From Dicentrarchus labrax (lineage: Eukaryota), in contig NW_026136706.1 in the NCBI RefSeq assembly GCF_905237075.1, positions 24,847,935 to 24,911,934 on the forward strand: 64,000 bases of DNA. Direction: 5' to 3'. Below the pieces are notes generated by a model. It ran no database searches. It saw only the letters and a list, made by a program, of their open reading frames with translations, and was not told the DNA's origin. Of this stretch, positions 1-63,671 are shown piece after piece. The position numbers and the translations under genes were made by a program. The number at the start of each line of letters is the position of its first letter. Within the stretch, counting starts at the first letter, position 1.

Positions 1-703
1 CTGTTAGCACATTAACATGAAATCACTTTTAAAAATGTTTTTATTAACTAATGGCATTTGCAAGAATCCACCAGGAACTGAATGGAAACAACCAATCAAA
101 GGCGAGAAAGATGGGTGATTGCTAAGTCTCATTCCCAGGTCATTAAATACATATCCTTTGGGACCCTGGGAATGAGACTCAATCAAATAGAGCGAAGCCT
201 GCGAGCTAGTTCAGGCAGTCAACTCAAGCTGCGCTGATATACACACATGACATGCCTTATTCCATAATCACCAACCAAGCGCACCCTTCCTATCTGGTGG
301 TCTATTTAAACTGCACAATTTCCCAGCCCCCCCTCTGCTCTGTTAATGCCGCTGTTGCCCTGCATCCGTATTGCTGCTGTTGCTAGTGATGGCAGTGCGA
401 CACTGAAGCTTCGATACATGCTTCGAACCCTGAACTACAATTCCATAGAACCACTTCTTCAAAGCTTGCTTTGGTGCGAAAAAAATCACGTGACAAATGA
501 CGTCCGAAGCAGCAACTGTTCCATTGCCTGAATGAATCAGCTGTCTGGTTCGCGGTCCAATCAGGTGATTCACTGCCCCAATTCTGACAGGTGACAGGTT
601 ACGACAGTTTTGAATTTGAGCACCATTAACACTTTATAACCGCTCTAAACAATGCACAATTTGTGGGTTGCTATCGTAGTTGGAGAGTTACTATTTTGAG
701 TTA

Positions 704-799
704 TTGCGTTTGTATTGTTCATTACGTCTGTATTGATTCATTGTGTTTGTATTGATTCATTGCGTTTGTATTGATTCGTTGCGTTTGTATTGATTCATT
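704..799. repeat. Minisatellite of about 5 tandem copies of a 19-21-bp unit (gcgtttgtattgattcatt), ending exactly at the ATG of the hAT-like exon 1
   Basis: Direct reading: cattacgtctgtattgattcatt / gtgtttgtattgattcatt / gcgtttgtattgattcgtt / gcgtttgtattgattcatt, followed by ATG at 800. Confidence 0.8.
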
Positions 800-868
800 A
801 TGGAGCCAGCCAGGAAGAGAGGTCGTTCTAACATGTGGGAACACTTCAATTTGGTCAATCCTGATAAG
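800..868 (+). CDS. hAT/BED-type transposase-like gene, exon 1 (MEPARKRGRSNMWEHFNLVNPDK), ending at a canonical GTAGGT donor
   Basis: ATG at 800-802, open frame to 868, then gtaggtgtg at 869. The W-E-H-F motif is typical of the N-terminal part of BED fingers in hAT transposases and ZBED proteins. Confidence 0.6.
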
Positions 869-1057
869 GTAGGTGTGCTGTTTAATATGTAAAGTAGGAA
901 AAGTAAAGTTACATATACAACAGAAACTACCAGTACAGTACTATAGCTATGCTCCATCTCAAGTTTATATTTAGTAGCAACACACTAAAATAATGTATAT
1001 GATTAGTGTAGCCATTAGGCTATAGACATTTTTATTTACAAATGGCTTTCTCTACAG

Positions 1058-1172
1058 GTCCAGTGCTTGGTGTGTTCAGCTGAACTGAAGTATCGCGGCA
1101 ATACTTCCTCCATGATAAGGCACTTCACTGCCAAGCATGGAGCTGCTGTGAACCAGGGCAACACAAATCAAG
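1058..1172 (+). CDS. hAT/BED transposase-like gene, exon 2 (VQCLVCSAELKYRGNTSSMIRHFTAKHGAAVNQGNTNQ), the Cys2-His2 core of a BED zinc finger
   Basis: Acceptor tctacAG at 1056-1057 and donor GTATGC at 1173. C-x2-C ... H-x4-H spacing (CLVC ... HFTAKH) matches the BED finger. The frame is continuous with exon 1 (phase 0) and leaves phase 1 for exon 3. Confidence 0.6.
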
Positions 1173-1294
1173 GTATGCATTATATCATTATTAACTAGAC
1201 ACACTAACACAATATGATATGACTGTATTCCATGACTCATAGACCTGCTTCATAGAAATGCAATTTCACATAAATCCTTATTTTCTCTTATTCA

Positions 1295-1297
1295 TTT

Positions 1298-1333
<36 letters not shown>
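1295..1333. repeat. (TTTC)n microsatellite forming the polypyrimidine tract of intron 2
   Basis: ttctttctttctttc... repeated about 10 times, immediately before the AG acceptor at 1334-1335. Confidence 0.9.
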
Positions 1334-1335
1334 AG

Positions 1336-1640
1336 TGGACCGAAAGCGAGAGGTAGATGAAGCTCTTGTCAATATTGTGGTGAAAGACTCGCAGCCTTTT
1401 TCCATCGTGGATGACTGTGGCTTTAAGGAGTTTGTGGCATTGCTTGATCCCACATATAGTCTTCCATCCCGACGGGCTCTGAAGAACATGGTGGTTCAGA
1501 GGTATGAGGTGGAGAAAACCAAGACCAAGGCTGTAATTCAAAGGGTAGAGGCTGTGAGCCTGACTGCGGATATGTGGACCTCCATTAATATAGACGCATA
1601 TCTAGCAGTGATATGCCATTATCTGGATGAGTCTGTGTAA
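1336..1640 (+). CDS. hAT transposase-like gene, exon 3, encoding the N-terminal core region with the hallmark LTADMWTS motif; TAA stop at 1638-1640 (truncated relative to a full hAT transposase)
   Basis: Acceptor tttcttAG at 1334-1335 after a (TTTC)n polypyrimidine tract. The split codon g|tg is completed from exon 2. Translation: VDRKREVDEALVNIVVKDSQPFSIVDDCGFKEFVALLDPTYSLPSRRALKNMVVQRYEVEKTKTKAVIQRVEAVSLTADMWTSINIDAYLAVICHYLDESV*. The architecture resembles the equivalent region of Tol2 transposase (recalled from memory). No further hAT-like coding sequence follows. Confidence 0.6.
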
Positions 1641-1861
1641 TTAAAAGCATCATGTCCATCAACTAGCCTGCCTAATTTGACTGCAGCCTTGCACTTTGCC
1701 AGAAGAGGTCACTGTAACTGAAGCTTCGAGTAATGAACCCATTTTCGAAACAATTATCAGTGCTTCACAAAAGCTTCATTTGCCCATCACTAGCTGTTGC
1801 TCTGTAAGCTATTGCTGCCTGCTGCGCTGTAAGCCCCACCACCACCCCAGCATCCACCTGT

Positions 1862-3545: not shown

Positions 3546-3939
3546 CCGTAACTTCTTGGTGTCCACATAGAAATACAAAACATTCACACAGAATGTACAG
3601 GAGCCATCCACACTTAATCACATACACCTCTGACCTAAAACACATACCCACCCAGTCCCCCTCATACCTACACAGAATACCCGCAACAGCAGCAACAACA
3701 ATGATAACTAATAAACAGATATAATGTCAGTCTCTCAATCTTCTAGTCCAGTTATGATTAGCTTAATAAGAAGAACAATCATTCATTGATGTCAAACAAA
3801 GGAACCGACATAACAGCTAAGAACAAGGACAGCAAAGCTGAACAAAAAAAGGTGAGACAGGACTATTATGTTTACATGTGAAGAAATATCTTTCATACAA
3901 ACATGAAGCACAAAGTGCTTCACATAGCAAACAACACAT

Positions 3940-4330
3940 AAAAATAATATGAAGGCAGTGAGTTCCACAGTTTAGTTTAGGCATAAAAACAGAAGGCATT
4001 CTCACCAGTCCTTTATGGGACATAAGGAACATTAAAAAGAAAAGTGGTGGAGGACCTCAGTGATCTAGCTGGAACATAAAATGAAAGAAAGTCTCCAATG
4101 TATGGTGGAGCAAGGTCATTTAAAACTTTATAAACAATTAAAAGAACTCTAAAATCAATTCTGAAAGATACAGGCAGCCAGTGCAATGTCTTCAGCAGAG
4201 GTGTGATGTGGTTCATTTTCCTAGTTTTAGTTAAGACTCTGGCCGCTACTAGCTCTAGCTTTCTTATAGACTTTTAAGGTAATCCCATTAAAAGAGAACT
4301 ACAATAATCTAAACAGAAAAAAATCAGAAT
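3940..4330 (-). mobile_element. 3' end of a non-LTR retrotransposon (L2/CR1-like LINE tail). The minus-strand ORF carries the conserved LHWLPV..RIDF.VLL.VYK.LN.LAP.Y...L..Y.P.R.LRS motif
   Basis: The ORF at 4013-4216 (-) translates to ...LKTLHWLPVSFRIDFRVLLIVYKVLNDLAPPYIGDFLSFYVPARSLRSS..., a motif I recognise from the C-terminal region of fish LINE ORF2. The flanking sequence matches a widespread fish repeat (ggccagtgcaatg...gttttagttaagactc). Confidence 0.5.
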
Positions 4331-4861
4331 CTAAAATCCCCCCCAAATTTGTGACATTATATTTTTATGTTTTTGGTAGGGTCACCCAGTATATTGATAG
4401 TTTTTCTCTCTCTGCTTTGGGTCCTATTAAAAGAATCTCTGTTTTTTCCTCATTAAGCTTTAAAAAGTTCTTACTCATCCATACATTGATGTCAGTGAGA
4501 CAGGCAATGACAGCATGTCATTGTCATTGTAGAGTTGGGGTTGTTTGGTGAAGCATAAAAATTATAATTGACTTGGTGATGATTAATGATATTTCTGAGG
4601 GGGGAGCATATATAGAGAGAACAGAATTGGTCCAAGAATGCTTCCTTGAGGGATACCATATTGAATACGAGAAACAAGTCCAGTGTTTCTGTACGTACAA
4701 TACCAAAAATATTGAATGGATTATACATGTAGTGGATGATTAGTATGTTGTATACATGTAAATACATGCTACTATATGTACAGTGTGAAGGATTTTTATT
4801 GACAATGAAATATGTTGTTTGTCAATTCCCTCCCTCTTCTCTAATCGGTTTTATAGTCTGA

Positions 4862-25559: not shown

Positions 25560-26300
25560 TAAAAACAATAACAAAAGCTGAAGTTTGATGATGTTGTGAA
25601 CAGTAATGGGTAGTAAGGCATAACTCAGTAACACGTTACTGTAATATGTAATAATGTAATAATATGTTATATTCTTACTTTCCCCAGTAACTAGTAGTGT
25701 AAGGGATTACTATTTCCAAAACAGTAATAATATTACTAATCCAAGTAACACTGTGTTACTGCGTTATTAGAATGTGATTAGTTTTTTTGTCCTAAGCTGC
25801 TAATTTAAGATGTGGTATTATGTGTGATTTCATGTCAGATAAGGGGGCAGGTCAAGTCGGCTGCTAGTTAAAAAGCTAAACGAAGAACGGAGAGGGAAGA
25901 TGGTGGGCTTTCTTCATACAGCTGGAAGTATTGCCATTGAGTTTGTCACAGTCAAAGATGCAAAGAACATTGTCACCTGTTAGAGCAAAAAGCTTCCCCA
26001 CCTATCTACCTTGAGACAGAATATGTGGTGATGGAATCTAAATTAAAGGCCACAGACACAAGGTAGACTTTGCTTCCACCACAGCTGACGTCTGGACAGC
26101 CAACAACAAAAGCTTTCTGGGTGTAATAGTTCACTGAATTAGCAGCCAGTTGTCCAAAGTTCAAACTCTGATGGCTAGGGGGTGAGGGTTGGAGAGAGCT
26201 TCTGACAGCAGAGTGTCACACAGCTGCACCTGCAGAGGACCCTGCCTCTGTGTCCACAACAGCAGCCAGCCATGGTGAAATGGACTTTTTTGCATTTGAG
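25560..26300 (+). mobile_element. Degenerate hAT-superfamily element: subterminal short repeats (agtaacacgttactg, ccaagtaacactgtgttactg) followed by a frameshifted transposase relic carrying the hAT motif VDFASTTADVWTANNKSFLGV..H
   Basis: 26068-26150 translates to FASTTADVWTANNKSFLGVIVH* with ESKLKATDTR upstream in another frame. This has the same pattern as the ...SLTADMWTS... block in exon 3 at 1336-1640. Stops and frameshifts show it is a relic. Confidence 0.5.
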
Positions 26301-26326
26301 ACAGAGCTCAAGGACAGCTATTATCT

Positions 26327-26440
<114 letters not shown>

Positions 26441-29400
26441 TATTTGAGGTCAGGGGGATATAAGGTTGAGGCTCTGAACCAGTTCTCAAACATCAACAAA
26501 CATTTACATGAAGTACACCCTGACCCCATCTAGCACACCTGTGCAGCTGCTTTTTAGTTTAGGAGGTTTGGTGCTCACCCCCAGAAGGAACAGACTGTCT
26601 GATCAGAGTTCTGAGAAGCTTCTGCTAGTGAGATACAGTCATTGTTTTACTTCTGAACATCATCACCTTGTCAGGGCAGAAATAACAAAGCAAGAAGCTG
26701 GACGCGAGTGTAAATGGCGCTAAGTGACTAAGTTATGTAAAGCCATTAAATACTCATTGCTGTGCCTATGAATGAATATGCAGAAAACATTAGTTAATAA
26801 GTCCTGTAGAGACTAGAGCTTTTTTTAAAATTTTCATTCAGTGTGCAAAGTTTTCTGTTTTGTAAAACCATTAAATACTGCTGCTCTTTCATGCAGAAGA
26901 ATATTAGTTAAAAAGTCGGGACTGGCTTTATTTTCTGTATTTACGCCAATGGCTTTAACCAATGTTTCCTGTTTTGTAAAACCACTTAATGCTGCTGGCT
27001 ATTCTTATTAATGATAATAATTATTTATTTCAGCCAGTGCCATTAAGAAACATTCTATGTTTTGTAAAACCATTAATTACTCCCTGCTCTTATGAATATT
27101 CAGAAACATATTAGTTAAAAAGTCAGGACAGACTTAAGTAAGTTTTTACAATTCCTGAGTCACTTGCCCAACACTGGTCGTGAAGTAGCGTGGGATCATG
27201 GGAGTTGTTGTCTTCACCACCATTACCATCATGGCAGTCAGCTTCTCTCAGTTAGGGTTACCTAGTCAGTGTTTGTTGTTCAGGAGGTTTTTACTGGGAT
27301 CTGAAACAAAACAAACAGACATACTGATTTAAACCGGGGAAAGAAACTGAATGAAGCAGCTCCACCAAAAAAGTGTTTCTCCAGTGTGTTGAGCAGACAA
27401 AGGACGTCCCGGAGGAGTTCTGAGTCGAGCTGCTGCTAACTTTAGCTCAGCTTGTTTCTCTGATAATTTAAGATCCAGGCATCGAAAAAAAATACTTCAT
27501 TCAACTAAAATATACAGTTCCAAATAACCAAGATAAATGTGGCATAAAAGTGGATACAAATTTATGAAACACTAAATAAAGGAATTCAGGGACGGAATTT
27601 AACACAACCTCACATGTTGAATTTGTATTATGTCTGTGGCTTCAACAGGAGGAGCAGCAGCTATAAGAGAACAGCTGTCCCTTTAAACTGAGGAAATGTT
27701 AATGTAGCAAATCTGACTTAAATGTGTCAGTGTGACTGAACAGCTGCTGATTCAACTAAATATCCTAAGTTGATTGAACTTGTTTTCATAAGTTCAGTGA
27801 ACTTGCCTCAGTTGGTTTTTACACTTTCAAAACTCGTAAGAAAACTCTGAAGTGACGATTTAACCTGAGTTCAGTTAACTCACAAATTTAGGGCAGCAGG
27901 GGAACTTCTCAGTTGAAGCAGCTTAAAATGACTTACAGTGCACAACAGTAAGGAGTTTGGAGTTAAGGGGAAAAGTTAACCTTTACTGACCCGTGGCAGC
28001 GGTTGGCAGCAGTGTGCTGTCACTTGGGATTTAAGCTTTATTCTCTTACTGGCTCAGAAAAACACTGTTAAACAAAAGAAAATACATTTAAGCGACATTC
28101 CTTCAACTATTTAACACCCATTTTCAAGTGTGCACTCTTCTGCACATTGTAGCCGAATTATTTTTAACAGTAGGTTTTCTTTTTGGTAAATGTCCGCAGT
28201 GACGGATAAGGTTGGAGGTCTCAGCTATCAATAAATGTATTACATGTTTAAATTCATGTAACTTTTTCTTGCAAAACCAGTTCATGTTACCATCCTGCAG
28301 GCAGAACAGTGGGTGGAAAAAGGGCTGCTATGTCCTTTCGCCCATGGTTTTGGTATTGTGCTGCGATTGTTGAGCAGCGAAGCGGCACAGGAGGAGGGTG
28401 ATCAGCTGCGTGCTGCCCAGGAGGAGCTGCTGACCCCTGAGTCAACCTCATCTGTTTTCCCCCATGGACCAACACTGCAGGAGCTCGGAGCAGGCTGCTG
28501 CTGCCGAGCTGCTGTCCATGTATCACCAACAAGATCTGCTTACTGCAGCCCGCAGCACTCCACACATCACACTATAAAGAAGGCTGGGGGAAACAGCTAC
28601 TGTGTCATGTACACCTGTAAGATACGGTCAGTCAGGTTAAGGGAAAAAAAAAAGAAACTTGAGATGATAAAAAAAACTAATAGGAAAAAAACCCCTCAAA
28701 GCTTGTAGTTAAAGCGTAGCTGGGATTTTATTAAACTCCTGACACCATGAATAGTAAGTACGCAGTGCACTGATTTCAGTCATAGATTACACCTGCTTCT
28801 TCACTGTGTGTATGTGCAAAAGAGTGCAAGACTACAGGTTTTCATTTCTCTAAGAAAATAACCAGCCAACATATGAAAAATGATTCTCCCTGGATAATAT
28901 TTTCATAAGAAAAAGGCCCATATTTTTATCATGAATCTGAGAAGGTGCATTATTTATAACAATATACTGTTTCAAATGATGATCACTCAGTAAAATGGTG
29001 CTCATAACGCTCTCATCCTCGCTAGATCAACCTGACACGACAAAATGAACAGTACAATGCGACTGTAGTGGTTAATGTTCTGTGGATGTTTGTGAAGATA
29101 TTATTTGACCTTTAAAGGCTCATGCATGAGTCAGTTTTGGATCCTCTCCATTCTCAGTCCTCTTTTCCAGTAGCGACGCAGAAGAGCAAGCTCAGCAGAC
29201 AGCGGAGAGGGATGAAGAAAGAAGAGAGAGGTGGAAAAGTCATTAACAGAAAATTGATCAGGTCTGGTTCTACCCAGAGCTAATGCCAATATTCTTCCAA
29301 GGCTGATGTCTTTGCTAACACCAAAACAAGTAATCAGAGGCTCTATCACACACACTACATGAGTCTACCACAGCCCACTAATGATTTTGTTTACATCCAT

Positions 29401-63120: not shown

Positions 63121-63671
63121 CAGAGGTGGGAAGTAACAAAGTACAAATACTTAGTTACTCTTTAAACGTTTTTATGACAAAATGTTCTTGCTACAATGTA
63201 TAATTAAATGGGTTTTTGTGTGTGTAATTTCTATTCTCTTTTAACCCATGTGGTTGATGTGTGGAAATACACTATTAGTCTGTATTATTTGTAAACTCTT
63301 TGGTTATATTTTTTTGGCATGTATGAAATTGGCATGCACTTGTTTTGTTGGTTTTACCTGGTTAATTAAAAATGAAAATAAAAATACTTTCAGGTATCTA
63401 TAGTTAACTTGACTCTTAATTTTTCTCACAACTCCTACTTTTACTCACTACATTTTTACACAAATATCTGTACTTTCTACTCCTTCCTCTACTCAAAGAC
63501 CGGTCCATATCACGCACAGACCTAACAAGATGTATAAGACACAATGACATAACATGACAAAACAGACTAGACTTTTTTCGCTCGTATTTGAGTAAAGAAG
63601 CTGAATCAGTACTTCTACTTTTATTTACCTTCTACTTTTATTGGAGAACAAGTGTACTTTTGCCACCTCTG
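63121..63671. mobile_element. Tol2-like non-autonomous hAT element (551 bp) with terminal inverted repeats CAGAGGTGG... and a perfect 8-bp target-site duplication TTTATTTG (63113-63120 and 63672-63679)
   Basis: The 5' end is cagaggtgggaagtaacaaagtacaaatactt. The reverse complement of the 3' end is cagaggtggcaaaagtacacttg. Internal AAGTAC/GTACTT subterminal repeats are present. Flanks: ...gagctTTTATTTG|cagagg ... cctctg|TTTATTTGctg. Tol2 ends are CAGAGGTGTAAAGTACTTGAG... and ...GTACTTTTTACACCTCTG, recalled from memory. Confidence 0.75.

What the first reader, a model, noticed from the sequence alone, without database searches (positions are those of the whole stretch)
700..1640. Three-exon BED-zinc-finger/hAT transposase 5' fragment with clean GT-AG introns: either a Tol2-like intron-bearing transposase or a truncated domesticated ZBED-like gene
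Exons 800-868, 1058-1172 and 1336-1640 splice in frame into a roughly 162-aa product. It contains a BED finger (C-x2-C...H-x4-H) and the hAT hallmark SLTADMWTS block, then stops. Most hAT transposases are intronless, and intron-containing ones are characteristic of the Tol2 group. A bona fide Tol2-like terminus lies elsewhere in this window at 63121-63671. A minisatellite abuts the ATG, and CRE (TGACGTC, 497-503) and E-box (CACGTG, 488-493) motifs sit in a GC-richer stretch upstream, so this could be a promoter captured by or driving the element.
Basis: partly seen in the sequence, partly recalled or inferred. Interest (0 to 1): 0.6.

Follow-up and report, generated by a model that had tools for sequence, protein, structure and literature searches.

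The report
Internally deleted hAT transposon copy
The three-exon BED-finger fragment is real, but it is the front end of an ordinary defective copy of a fish "cut-and-paste" hAT transposon that has lost its middle 1.6 kb; it is neither a Tol2 relative nor a host gene.

Summary
Exons 800-868, 1058-1172 and 1336-1640 splice in frame through GT-AG introns into a 162-aa product. It carries a BED finger, a Hermes-like DNA-binding domain and the first catalytic Asp of a hAT transposase.

The fragment lies inside a bounded element, window 384-1792. This element has perfect 9-bp terminal inverted repeats (TAGTGATGG) and a perfect 8-bp target-site duplication (GCTGTTGC).

It aligns end to end, introns and untranslated ends included, at about 80-90% identity with a 2.9-kb, four-exon element of the chub Siphateles boraxobius. 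One copy there encodes an intact 579-aa transposase. The window copy lacks about 1.6 kb of the interior, and its stop codon sits at the deletion junction. It is therefore a Ds-like non-autonomous deletion derivative.

It is not Tol2-like:
- it is 22-24% identical to Tol2/Tgf2 transposase and falls in a separate clade;
- its terminal repeats differ from Tol2's;
- no intron position is shared with a real medaka Tol2 copy.

It is not a domesticated gene, because its termini and target duplication are intact. The CRE-like and E-box motifs belong to the element's own conserved 5' region.

The finding is ordinary and of low interest. Side observations: the family looks horizontally spread among teleost orders, and a truncated double-BED derivative appears domesticated in Cyprinodontiformes.

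The parts
376..383 (.). Left copy of the 8-bp target-site duplication, GCTGTTGC
   Evidence: It is identical to 1793-1800. It is the only TSD8 + TIR9 combination found in a 200x200-position scan, and 0 of 200 shuffles gave any.
384..392 (+). Left terminal inverted repeat, TAGTGATGG
   Evidence: It is a perfect reverse complement of 1784-1792. The same terminus is found in Siphateles copies L001, L002 and L003 and in Trematomus L004.
384..702 (+). 5' subterminal region and 5' UTR of the element, its probable own promoter. It contains the E-box CACGTG (487-492), the CRE-like TGACGTC (498-504), a CCAAT box (557-561) and GAAGCTTC subterminal motifs.
   Evidence: It aligns to the 5' end of the Siphateles and Trematomus elements. 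TGACGTCCGAAGCA and GTCCAATCAGGTGATTCA are invariant in all four sequences. CpG o/e is 0.79 here against 0.32 for the window. Promoter function is inferred, not shown.
703..799 (+). 19-bp minisatellite (ATTGCGTTTGTATTGATTC, 5.2 units) in the 5' UTR, ending at the ATG
   Evidence: Tandem Repeats Finder score 159. The unit is single-copy in the Siphateles and Trematomus elements, so the expansion is specific to this copy or its lineage.
800..868 (+). Exon 1 (aa 1-23), start of the BED finger region
   Evidence: It has the same 69-nt exon length as in intact Siphateles L003 and in the cyprinodontiform genes.
869..1057 (+). Intron 1 (189 bp, GT-AG)
   Evidence: Its position is identical to intron 1 of L003, which is 195 bp. 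It is 86.8% identical to L003 with non-3n indels. GC is 31%.
1058..1172 (+). Exon 2 (aa 24-61 plus 1 nt), the C-x2-C...H-x4-H core of the BED finger
   Evidence: The exon is 115 nt in all relatives examined.
1173..1335 (+). Intron 2 (163 bp, GT-AG), with a (TTTC)n tract at 1296-1333 serving as the polypyrimidine tract
   Evidence: It has the same position and the same length as intron 2 of L003. It is 84% identical to L003 with non-3n indels.
1336..1637 (+). Truncated exon 3 (aa 62-162): the Hermes-like DNA-binding domain and the start of the RNase-H-like catalytic domain, including the first catalytic Asp (D140)
   Evidence: Pfam DBD_Tnp_Hermes. Hermes alignment places D140 at D180. It is 87.7% identical to L003 exon 3 with no indels. 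Homology to the full-length element ends at 1637.
1638..1672 (+). Internal-deletion junction. The in-frame TAA (1638-1640) is the first codon after the breakpoint. The 35 bases 1638-1672 fall outside the BLAST alignment blocks.
   Evidence: Weak 3'-side homology may begin near 1654. Relatives read VKLATVLLG... at this point.
1673..1792 (+). 3' terminal region of the element, corresponding to positions 2782-2912 of the 2912-bp L003 element. It lies downstream of the transposase stop codon and ends in the right terminal repeat CCATCACTA (1784-1792).
   Evidence: About 84% identity by BLAST, or 91.7% counting aligned bases only. Terminal repeat.
1793..1800 (.). Right copy of the 8-bp target-site duplication, GCTGTTGC

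Best explanation
Window 384-1792 is a 1,409-bp non-autonomous, internally deleted copy of a teleost hAT DNA transposon. This is the same relationship that Ds bears to Ac.

The full-length element is about 2.9 kb. It has 9-bp terminal inverted repeats (TAGTGATGG) and a conserved 5' region of about 350 bp. Its four-exon gene encodes a 579-aa transposase made of a BED finger, a Hermes-like DNA-binding domain, a DDE RNase-H-like catalytic domain and a C-terminal hAT dimerisation domain.

The window copy inserted by cut-and-paste transposition, which duplicated 8 bp of target (GCTGTTGC). It carries a deletion of about 1.6 kb that removes the rest of exon 3, intron 3, exon 4 and about 250 bp of 3' UTR. 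What remains is both ends, the promoter and 5' UTR region, exons 1-2 and 302 nt of exon 3. A TAA at the junction closes the reading frame at 162 aa.

Shown here: the boundaries, the target duplication, the terminal repeats, collinearity with full-length relatives, the conserved intron positions and family membership.

Inferred:
- The deletion arose by interrupted gap repair after excision. This is the established route for Ac/Ds, hobo and P derivatives (my own knowledge).
- The copy cannot move by itself, because it keeps only one of the three catalytic residues and has no dimerisation domain. It could be moved in trans by a full-length family member.
- Any product made would be a DNA-binding-only protein.
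For: - A perfect TSD plus TIR pair is found only at 384/1792, and 0 of 200 shuffles gave any.
- The alignment to the Siphateles element has three collinear blocks. Window 384-724 matches the 5' end, 778-1637 matches exons plus introns at 83% identity, and 1673-1792 matches the 3' end. About 1.6 kb is missing between the last two.
- Siphateles copies L001 and L002 are 99.86% identical with different target duplications, ACTTGGTG and ACAATTGT.
- Intact copy L003 is 2912 bp with TSD CTGTAAAG and four exons separated by three GT-AG introns. It encodes P0040 (579 aa).
- P0040 has zf-BED, DBD_Tnp_Hermes and Dimer_Tnp_hAT. It matches Hermes transposase at E=8e-32 and keeps the equivalents of D180, D248, H268, W319 and E572.
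- Window introns 1 and 2 are at the same positions as in L003.
- Window D140 corresponds to Hermes D180, and nothing downstream of residue 162 is retained.
- Other deletion derivatives of the same family, with different breakpoints, are annotated as proteins in other fishes: P0006 from Pampus and P0029 from Pogonophryne.
- No further exon of this family occurs anywhere in the 64 kb.
Against: - No full-length or other copy from the window's own genome could be examined, because the source species is unknown. The deletion is therefore defined against elements of other species that are 12-20% diverged.
- The 162-aa frame and both splice-site pairs are still intact. This is mildly unexpected for a long-dead copy and leaves room for expression.
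- The mechanism of the deletion and mobilisation in trans are inferences.
- The 35 bp at the junction are unexplained in detail.
Confidence: 0.93

Rival explanations
1. It is a member or deletion derivative of the Tol2 group of hAT elements, recognisable by its introns, perhaps paired with the Tol2-like terminus at 63121-63671.
For: - It has an intron-bearing, four-exon transposase gene, as Tol2 does (Tol2 has four exons: bioRxiv 10.64898/2026.01.12.699174 and PMC4818426).
- An element with a CAGAGGTG terminus is present in the same window.
Against: - It is 23.6% identical to the Tol2/Tgf2 cluster representative P0160. That cluster includes Q9PTV1_ORYLA and BAA12332.
- The two groups form separate deep clades.
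- The terminal repeats are TAGTGATGG here and CAGAGGTGTAAA in Tol2.
- None of the three intron positions coincides.
- There is no DNA similarity to a real Tol2 copy.
- The 63121-63671 element is complete in itself, with its own target duplication, and lies 61 kb away.
Confidence: 0.01
2. It is a truncated, domesticated ZBED-like host gene encoding a 162-aa BED-finger DNA-binding protein, driven by a captured upstream promoter.
For: - The 162-aa ORF is intact with canonical splice sites.
- The 5' region is conserved and carries CRE-like and CCAAT motifs.
- A truncated derivative of this same family (BED plus DNA-binding domain, no catalytic part) sits at a syntenic locus in three cyprinodontiform species with dN/dS of 0.22-0.25. 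Such exaptation therefore does happen in this family.
Against: - The terminal repeats and a perfect target duplication still flank it. Presence of TSDs and TIRs is the criterion used to recognise (recently) active transposons as opposed to ZBED genes (PMC3606216).
- The promoter-like region is part of the element in three species, not captured.
- The stop codon is created by the deletion junction.
- There is no synteny with the cyprinodontiform gene.
- No exact match to this product is on record, and the best database hit is 92% identical over 88 aa.
Confidence: 0.03
3. It is a fragment of a hAT copy broken by an unrelated event, such as a later insertion, a rearrangement or an assembly break, rather than a bounded deletion derivative.
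For: - Homology to the transposase stops abruptly at 1637.
- About 35 bases at the junction do not align with the full-length element.
Against: - The genuine 3' terminus of the element follows within 35 bp and ends in the matching terminal repeat and target duplication.
- No foreign repeat lies between the two parts.
Confidence: 0.02

Closest known systems
Ac/Ds of maize (autonomous hAT element and its internal-deletion derivatives)
   Same: - Both have the same architecture: short terminal repeats, an 8-bp target duplication and an intron-containing transposase gene.
- In both, non-autonomous copies arise by internal deletion and keep both ends.
- The TIR TAGTGATGG resembles Ac's TAGGGATGAAA (the Ac sequence is recalled from memory and was not tested).
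   Different: - This is a vertebrate family with a 579-aa transposase and a 2.9-kb element.
- It has three introns, where Ac has four (own knowledge).
- Mobilisation of this copy has not been shown.
Teleost 'ZBED1-like / ZBED4-like' hAT transposases, e.g. P0040 Siphateles boraxobius, P0041 Trematomus bernacchii, P0044 Dicentrarchus labrax
   Same: - The window product belongs to this family. It is 83-92% identical in protein to these relatives and 80-90% identical in DNA, introns and ends included, to the Siphateles and Trematomus elements.
- Intron positions and terminal repeats are identical.
   Different: - The window copy lacks codons 163-579 and about 250 bp of 3' UTR.
- It has a copy-specific expansion of a 19-bp 5' UTR unit.
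- The 'ZBED1/4-like' names come from automated annotation. These are mobile elements, not orthologues of the domesticated ZBED1 and ZBED4 genes.
Tol2 (medaka) / Tgf2 (goldfish)
   Same: - Both belong to the hAT superfamily.
- Both have an 8-bp target duplication, a BED finger and a four-exon gene.
- Both occur in teleosts and show signs of horizontal spread.
   Different: - Protein identity is only 22-24%, and the two fall in separate clades.
- The terminal repeats differ.
- Intron positions are not shared.
- Tol2 is 4.7 kb with roughly 300-bp internal inverted repeats (bioRxiv 10.64898/2026.01.12.699174). This family is 2.9 kb, and no such repeats are present in the window copy.
Hermes transposase (Musca domestica; PDB 8EDG, 2BW3, 4D1Q)
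   Same: - The domain order is the same.
- The catalytic D, D, E and the CxxH and RW motifs align.
- Hermes provides the mechanistic model for the family, in which BED domains bind the transposon ends (PMC10368747).
   Different: - Hermes is an insect element and is intronless (own knowledge).
- Sequence similarity to this family is low (phmmer E=8e-32).
Domesticated ZBED genes (ZBED1, ZBED4, ZBED6)
   Same: - Both have a BED finger and hAT-derived domains.
- Both derive from the Ac family of hAT (PMC3606216).
   Different: ZBED genes are syntenically conserved host genes without terminal repeats or target duplications. The window copy has both and is truncated by a deletion.

Membership tests
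hAT superfamily DNA transposon | 8-bp target-site duplication | tested here: met
   GCTGTTGC is present at 376-383 and 1793-1800. Relatives also have 8-bp duplications: ACTTGGTG, ACAATTGT and CTGTAAAG.
hAT superfamily DNA transposon | Short terminal inverted repeats | tested here: met
   TAGTGATGG / CCATCACTA, 9 of 9 complementary, and conserved in three species.
hAT superfamily DNA transposon | N-terminal BED zinc finger and Hermes-type DNA-binding domain | tested here: met
   Pfam zf-BED at E=1.5e-8 and DBD_Tnp_Hermes at E=2.5e-4, both above their gathering scores.
hAT superfamily DNA transposon | DDE RNase-H-like catalytic domain | tested here: met
   Met for the family. P0040 aligns with Hermes D180, D248 and E572, plus H268 and W319. 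The window copy retains only the first Asp, D140.
hAT superfamily DNA transposon | C-terminal hAT dimerisation domain (PF05699) | tested here: met
   Met for the family. P0040 residues 499-579 score E=5.5e-22. The domain is absent from the window copy because it lies within the deleted interior.
Non-autonomous internal-deletion derivative (Ds-like) | Both element ends retained and collinear with an autonomous relative, with the interior missing | tested here: met
   Three collinear alignment blocks, with about 1.6 kb missing between 1637 and 1673.
Non-autonomous internal-deletion derivative (Ds-like) | Mobilised in trans by the family's transposase | not testable with these tools
   This needs an excision or transposition assay, or polymorphism data from the source species.
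Tol2 group | Tol2-type termini (CAGAGGTGTAAA...) | tested here: not met
   The real Tol2 copy L008 has CAGAGGTGTAAA at both ends. The window element has TAGTGATGG. There is no DNA similarity between them.
Tol2 group | Transposase clusters with Tol2/Tgf2 | tested here: not met
   23.6% identity to P0160, against 83-86% to its own family. The two clades are separate in the neighbour-joining tree. The top-120 lists of the two searches share no protein id.
Tol2 group | Shared intron positions | tested here: not met
   The family's junctions are at aa 23, 61.3 and 471.3. Tol2's are at aa 108, 460.7 and 566.3, which map to P0040 aa 47, 319 and 427.
Tol2 group | Internal inverted repeats of about 300 bp | tested here: not met
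   No long internal inverted repeat is present within 384-1792. The feature is described for Tol2 in bioRxiv 10.64898/2026.01.12.699174.
Domesticated ZBED-type host gene | Loss of terminal repeats and target duplication | tested here: not met
   Both are intact. The criterion follows PMC3606216.
Domesticated ZBED-type host gene | Syntenic orthologues across species under purifying selection | tested here: inconclusive
   There is no synteny with the cyprinodontiform derivative of this family. The source species and its relatives could not be searched. The codon-position bias is equally expected for a transposase that evolved while active.
Ac versus Buster family of hAT | Target-site consensus (nTnnnnAn for Ac, nnnTAnnn for Buster; both recalled from memory) | tested here: inconclusive
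   Four target duplications were seen: GCTGTTGC, ACTTGGTG, ACAATTGT and CTGTAAAG. Only one fits either consensus, which is too few to decide. Placement in the Ac family rests on the ZBED1/4-like names and on PMC3606216.

The most novel reading that the evidence does not exclude
The deletion derivative is not inert. Its own conserved promoter region, intact splice sites and open 162-aa frame would yield a protein with only the BED finger and DNA-binding domain. That protein would bind the family's ends and repress transposition, or it has been taken over by the host as a DNA-binding factor. This would repeat what appears to have happened independently to the same family in Cyprinodontiformes, where a 231-232-aa double-BED derivative sits at a syntenic locus with dN/dS of about 0.22-0.25.
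Probability: 0.05. Interest if true: 0.45.

Novelty: new member of a known kind. Interest (0 to 1): 0.12.

Why it matters
The finding matters little in itself. It is a routine repeat-annotation item: a defective hAT copy that should be masked as a transposon rather than modelled as a 'ZBED1-like' gene.

It does illustrate how such deletion derivatives are picked up as short protein-coding genes in many fish annotations.

The surrounding family may deserve separate attention for three reasons:
- An apparently intact, recently active copy exists in Siphateles boraxobius. It is 2.9 kb and compact, which makes it a possible vector candidate.
- DNA identity of about 80-90%, introns included, between a cyprinid, an Antarctic notothenioid and the window's (probably percomorph) genome suggests horizontal transfer.
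- A truncated derivative appears to have been domesticated in Cyprinodontiformes.

Tried and rejected
- **Exact-sequence look-ups.** The exon-3 ORF was not on record. The source species therefore stays unidentified. The nearest protein, from Dicentrarchus labrax (92% over 88 aa), is only a hint.
- **P0044 locus.** No record was found for it.
- **Nesting in an older element.** The hAT copy might sit inside an older inverted-repeat element, suggested by matches of 94-112 with 2052-2070 and of 204-226 with 2001-2023. These are weak (E=0.01-0.08) and no other copy is in the window, so I make no claim.
- **Premature stop as a nonsense mutation (AAA to TAA).** I replaced this reading. DNA homology ends exactly at 1637, so the TAA belongs to the deletion junction. 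Residual protein-level similarity beyond it is marginal.
- **Source of the junction filler.** No convincing template was found in the full-length element.
- **Subterminal RAAGCTTY motif.** It is enriched window-wide, 19 matches against 8.6 expected, but this says little about the element.
- **Terminal repeats for the second hAT remnant at about 26 kb.** None were found with the TSD/TIR scan.
- **Rfam scan of the window.** No hit.
- **Target-site consensus for Ac versus Buster.** There were too few sites to decide.
Full report
**1. Observation**

The window is vertebrate-like DNA, with GC 38.8% and CpG observed/expected 0.32. The segments 800-868, 1058-1172 and 1336-1640 join in frame to 489 nt, giving 162 aa plus TAA. 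Both introns have canonical GT...AG ends.

Pfam finds a BED zinc finger (E=1.5e-8) at residues 10-50 and the Hermes-transposase DNA-binding domain (E=2.5e-4) at residues 62-96. Both are above their gathering scores. The 'SLTADMWTS' block aligns to Hermes 'SATIDLWTD', so D140 corresponds to the first catalytic Asp, D180.

The 19-bp minisatellite of 5.2 units at 703-799 abuts the ATG. The CACGTG and TGACGTC motifs exist at 487-492 and 498-504, one base off the coordinates given.

**2. Real exons and introns**

- Annotated homologues in many teleosts use the same two junctions...PDK|V.C... and ...NTNQ|VD.K....
- Against the Siphateles element, the three exons are 88-90% identical with no indel.
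- The two introns are 84-87% identical and carry many indels whose lengths are not multiples of three.
- Coding differences fall 16/9/31 by codon position.
- Exon GC is 46-50% and intron GC is 28-31%.

**3. What it is**

The protein search returned dozens of short teleost proteins named 'ZBED1-like', 'ZBED4-like' or 'AC transposase' at 75-88% identity. Fetching the locus of one of them, P0005 from Siphateles boraxobius, gave two loci. They share a block of about 2.9 kb that is 99.86% identical and ends abruptly.

That block has TAGTGATGG terminal inverted repeats. Its 8-bp target duplications differ between the two loci, ACTTGGTG and ACAATTGT. It is therefore a recently mobile element.

The window aligns to this element in three collinear blocks:

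| Window | Matches | Identity |
|---|---|---|
| 384-724 | 5' end | 80% |
| 778-1637 | exons and introns | 83% |
| 1673-1792 | 3' end | 84% |

About 1.6 kb of the interior is absent.

In the window the element starts at 384 with TAGTGATGG and ends at 1792 with CCATCACTA. It is flanked by GCTGTTGC at 376-383 and at 1793-1800. A scan for an 8-bp duplication plus a 9-bp terminal repeat finds only this pair, and 0 of 200 shuffles gave any.

**4. The full-length relative**

A conceptual translation of the Siphateles element retrieved P0040, an intact 579-aa protein from a third Siphateles locus. That copy, L003 2647-5558, is 2912 bp with TSD CTGTAAAG. It has four exons separated by GT-AG introns of 195, 163 and 75 bp.

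P0040 carries zf-BED, DBD_Tnp_Hermes and Dimer_Tnp_hAT. It matches Hermes transposase at E=8e-32. It keeps the equivalents of D180, D248, H268, W319 and E572.

The window's introns 1 and 2 are at exactly the positions of L003's introns 1 and 2.

The window lacks the following:
- the remainder of exon 3;
- intron 3;
- exon 4;
- about 250 bp of 3' UTR.

Its TAA at 1638-1640 is the first codon after the breakpoint. The 35 bases 1638-1672 lie outside the BLAST blocks, and weak 3'-side homology may begin near 1654.

No other piece of this family occurs in the 64 kb.

Other fishes carry different deletion derivatives of the same family, in which N-terminal parts are fused to the C-terminal domain. 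Examples are P0006 and P0029.

**5. Mechanism**

Shown here: a bounded hAT element with a target duplication, terminal repeats and a collinear internal deletion.

Established for the superfamily: hAT elements move by DDE cut-and-paste transposition that makes 8-bp duplications (PMC4818426), and BED domains bind the transposon ends (PMC10368747).

Inferred:
- The deletion arose by interrupted repair of an excision gap, as for Ds, hobo and P derivatives (own knowledge).
- The copy is non-autonomous, because it has one of three catalytic residues and no dimerisation domain. It keeps both ends and so could be moved in trans.

The 5' region 384-702 is conserved in the Siphateles and Trematomus copies. 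TGACGTCCGAAGCA and GTCCAATCAGGTGATTCA are invariant, and the CRE-containing unit is duplicated in Trematomus. The CRE-like, E-box and CCAAT motifs are therefore the element's own, probably its promoter and/or transposase-binding sites. They are not a captured host promoter.

The 19-bp unit is single-copy in the relatives, so the minisatellite is a copy-specific expansion of the 5' UTR.

**6. Not Tol2**

My recalled Tol2 transposase sequence matched database protein P0160 at 99%. The P0160 cluster contains Q9PTV1_ORYLA, BAA12332 and the goldfish Tgf2 proteins.

- The window product is 23.6% identical to P0160 (E=6e-12), against 83-86% to its own family and 50-67% to other 'ZBED1/4-like' teleost families.
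- P0040 is 21% identical to Tol2.
- A neighbour-joining tree separates a Tol2 clade from the clade holding this family, which also contains an insect sequence at 44% identity.
- A real medaka Tol2 copy (L008) is 4688 bp with termini CAGAGGTGTAAA and TSD ACAATGTA. Its exon junctions are after aa 108, 460.7 and 566.3. These map to P0040 aa 47, 319 and 427, whereas this family's junctions are at aa 23, 61.3 and 471.3. None coincide.
- There is no DNA similarity between the window element and Tol2.

Introns are therefore not a Tol2 signature.

The segment 63121-63671 is a complete 551-bp element with CAGAGGTGG termini, TSD TTTATTTG and weak Tol2-like subterminal similarity. It is unrelated to 384-1792.

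**7. Not a domesticated gene at this locus**

Intact terminal repeats and a target duplication are the criterion used to recognise (recently) active transposons as opposed to ZBED genes (PMC3606216). The promoter-like region belongs to the element, and the stop codon is a deletion artefact.

What remains open is whether the still-intact 162-aa frame is expressed. I give this reading about 5%.

**8. Side findings**

(a) Elements from Siphateles (Cypriniformes), Trematomus bernacchii (Notothenioidei) and the window are about 80-90% identical in DNA, introns and untranslated ends included. The window's best protein match is European seabass. If the window is from a percomorph, this is far too similar for vertical descent and suggests horizontal transfer. 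Such transfer is documented for other fish hATs (PMC11008031; bioRxiv 10.64898/2026.01.12.699174). The element's CpG o/e of 0.52, against 0.32 for the window, is compatible with a relatively recent arrival.

(b) In Anableps, Xiphophorus and Cyprinodon, a 231-232-aa protein has two tandem BED-plus-DNA-binding units derived from this family.
- It is encoded by five exons of 69, 115, 164-167, 115 and 233 nt.
- It has a 7tm_1 GPCR gene downstream in all three species, and VHL upstream in Xiphophorus and Anableps.
- dN/dS is 0.22-0.25 with dS of 0.28-0.68.
- This looks like a genuine domestication. The window shares no synteny with it.

(c) A second hAT remnant lies at about 26042-26650. It is nearer the Tol2 clade and appears to be another deletion derivative.

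**9. Verdict**

The finding is an ordinary, defective member of a known kind of transposon. Interest is low.

Noticed in passing
L005 10001-14253, L006 10001-16399, L007 10001-13397 (outside the window): Cyprinodontiform proteins P0001, P0002 and P0003 (231-232 aa) consist of two tandem [BED finger + Hermes-like DNA-binding] units derived from this same hAT family, with no catalytic domain. All three have the same five-exon structure. A 7tm_1 GPCR gene lies downstream in all three, and VHL lies upstream in Xiphophorus and Anableps. dN/dS is 0.22-0.25 with dS of 0.28-0.68. This is probably an undescribed domesticated hAT gene ('uncharacterized protein LOC114135785').
   Followed up: partly
L003 2647-5558; L001 and L002 9650-12573: Siphateles boraxobius carries an apparently intact 2912-bp autonomous copy with a 579-aa ORF in which all catalytic residues are kept. 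It also carries two frameshifted copies that are 99.86% identical to each other and have different 8-bp target duplications. This implies very recent transposition in that species.
   Followed up: partly
window 384-1792 versus L003 and L004 3611-7347: A cyprinid, an Antarctic notothenioid and the window's genome share about 80-90% DNA identity, introns and untranslated ends included. Within this family, protein identity is 83-89% between Siphateles and copies from notothenioids, seabass and a grouper, and 78% to a gadid, while other hAT families are about 50%. The pattern suggests horizontal transfer, but the source species of the window is not known.
   Followed up: partly
window 63121-63671: A complete 551-bp non-coding hAT-type element has perfect 9-bp terminal repeats (CAGAGGTGG) and an 8-bp target duplication (TTTATTTG). 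Its terminal core matches Tol2's CAGAGGTGT at 8 of 9 positions. Its subterminal regions show weak (60-70%) similarity to Tol2's. It is unrelated to the 384-1792 element.
   Followed up: partly
window 26042-26650: A second hAT remnant matches Tol2-clade proteins around the first catalytic Asp (26042-26149) and hAT C-terminal dimerisation domains (26502-26650). The two parts are separated by a (TA)n tract at 26318-26395. It is probably another internal-deletion derivative. No terminal repeat or target duplication was found.
   Followed up: partly
L004 about 3700-3770 (Trematomus bernacchii): The unit of about 30 bp that contains CACGTGAC.TATGACGTCCGAA.CA.CAACTGCTTC is tandemly duplicated in the Trematomus copy. 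This hints that it is a functional subterminal module, either a transposase-binding site or a promoter element.
   Followed up: no
window 351-383 and 1793-1825: The insertion target lies within a short tandem-like repeat: GCTGTTGC-CCTGCATCCGTATTGCT-GCTGTTGC on the left and GCTGTTGC-TCTGTAAGCTATTGCTGCCTGCTGC on the right. This explains the direct-repeat signal across the element.
   Followed up: yes
window 94-226 versus 2001-2070; also the hairpin at 125-139 / 165-179: Weak collinear inverted matches flank the hAT copy (19 nt at 89% and 23 nt at 87%, E=0.01-0.08), and there is a perfect 15-bp hairpin. They might mark an older element into which the hAT inserted, but they are not significant.
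   Followed up: partly
window 4096-4488: An inverted repeat has 35-nt arms that are 74% complementary and 323 nt apart. It is possibly another small terminal-inverted-repeat element.
   Followed up: no
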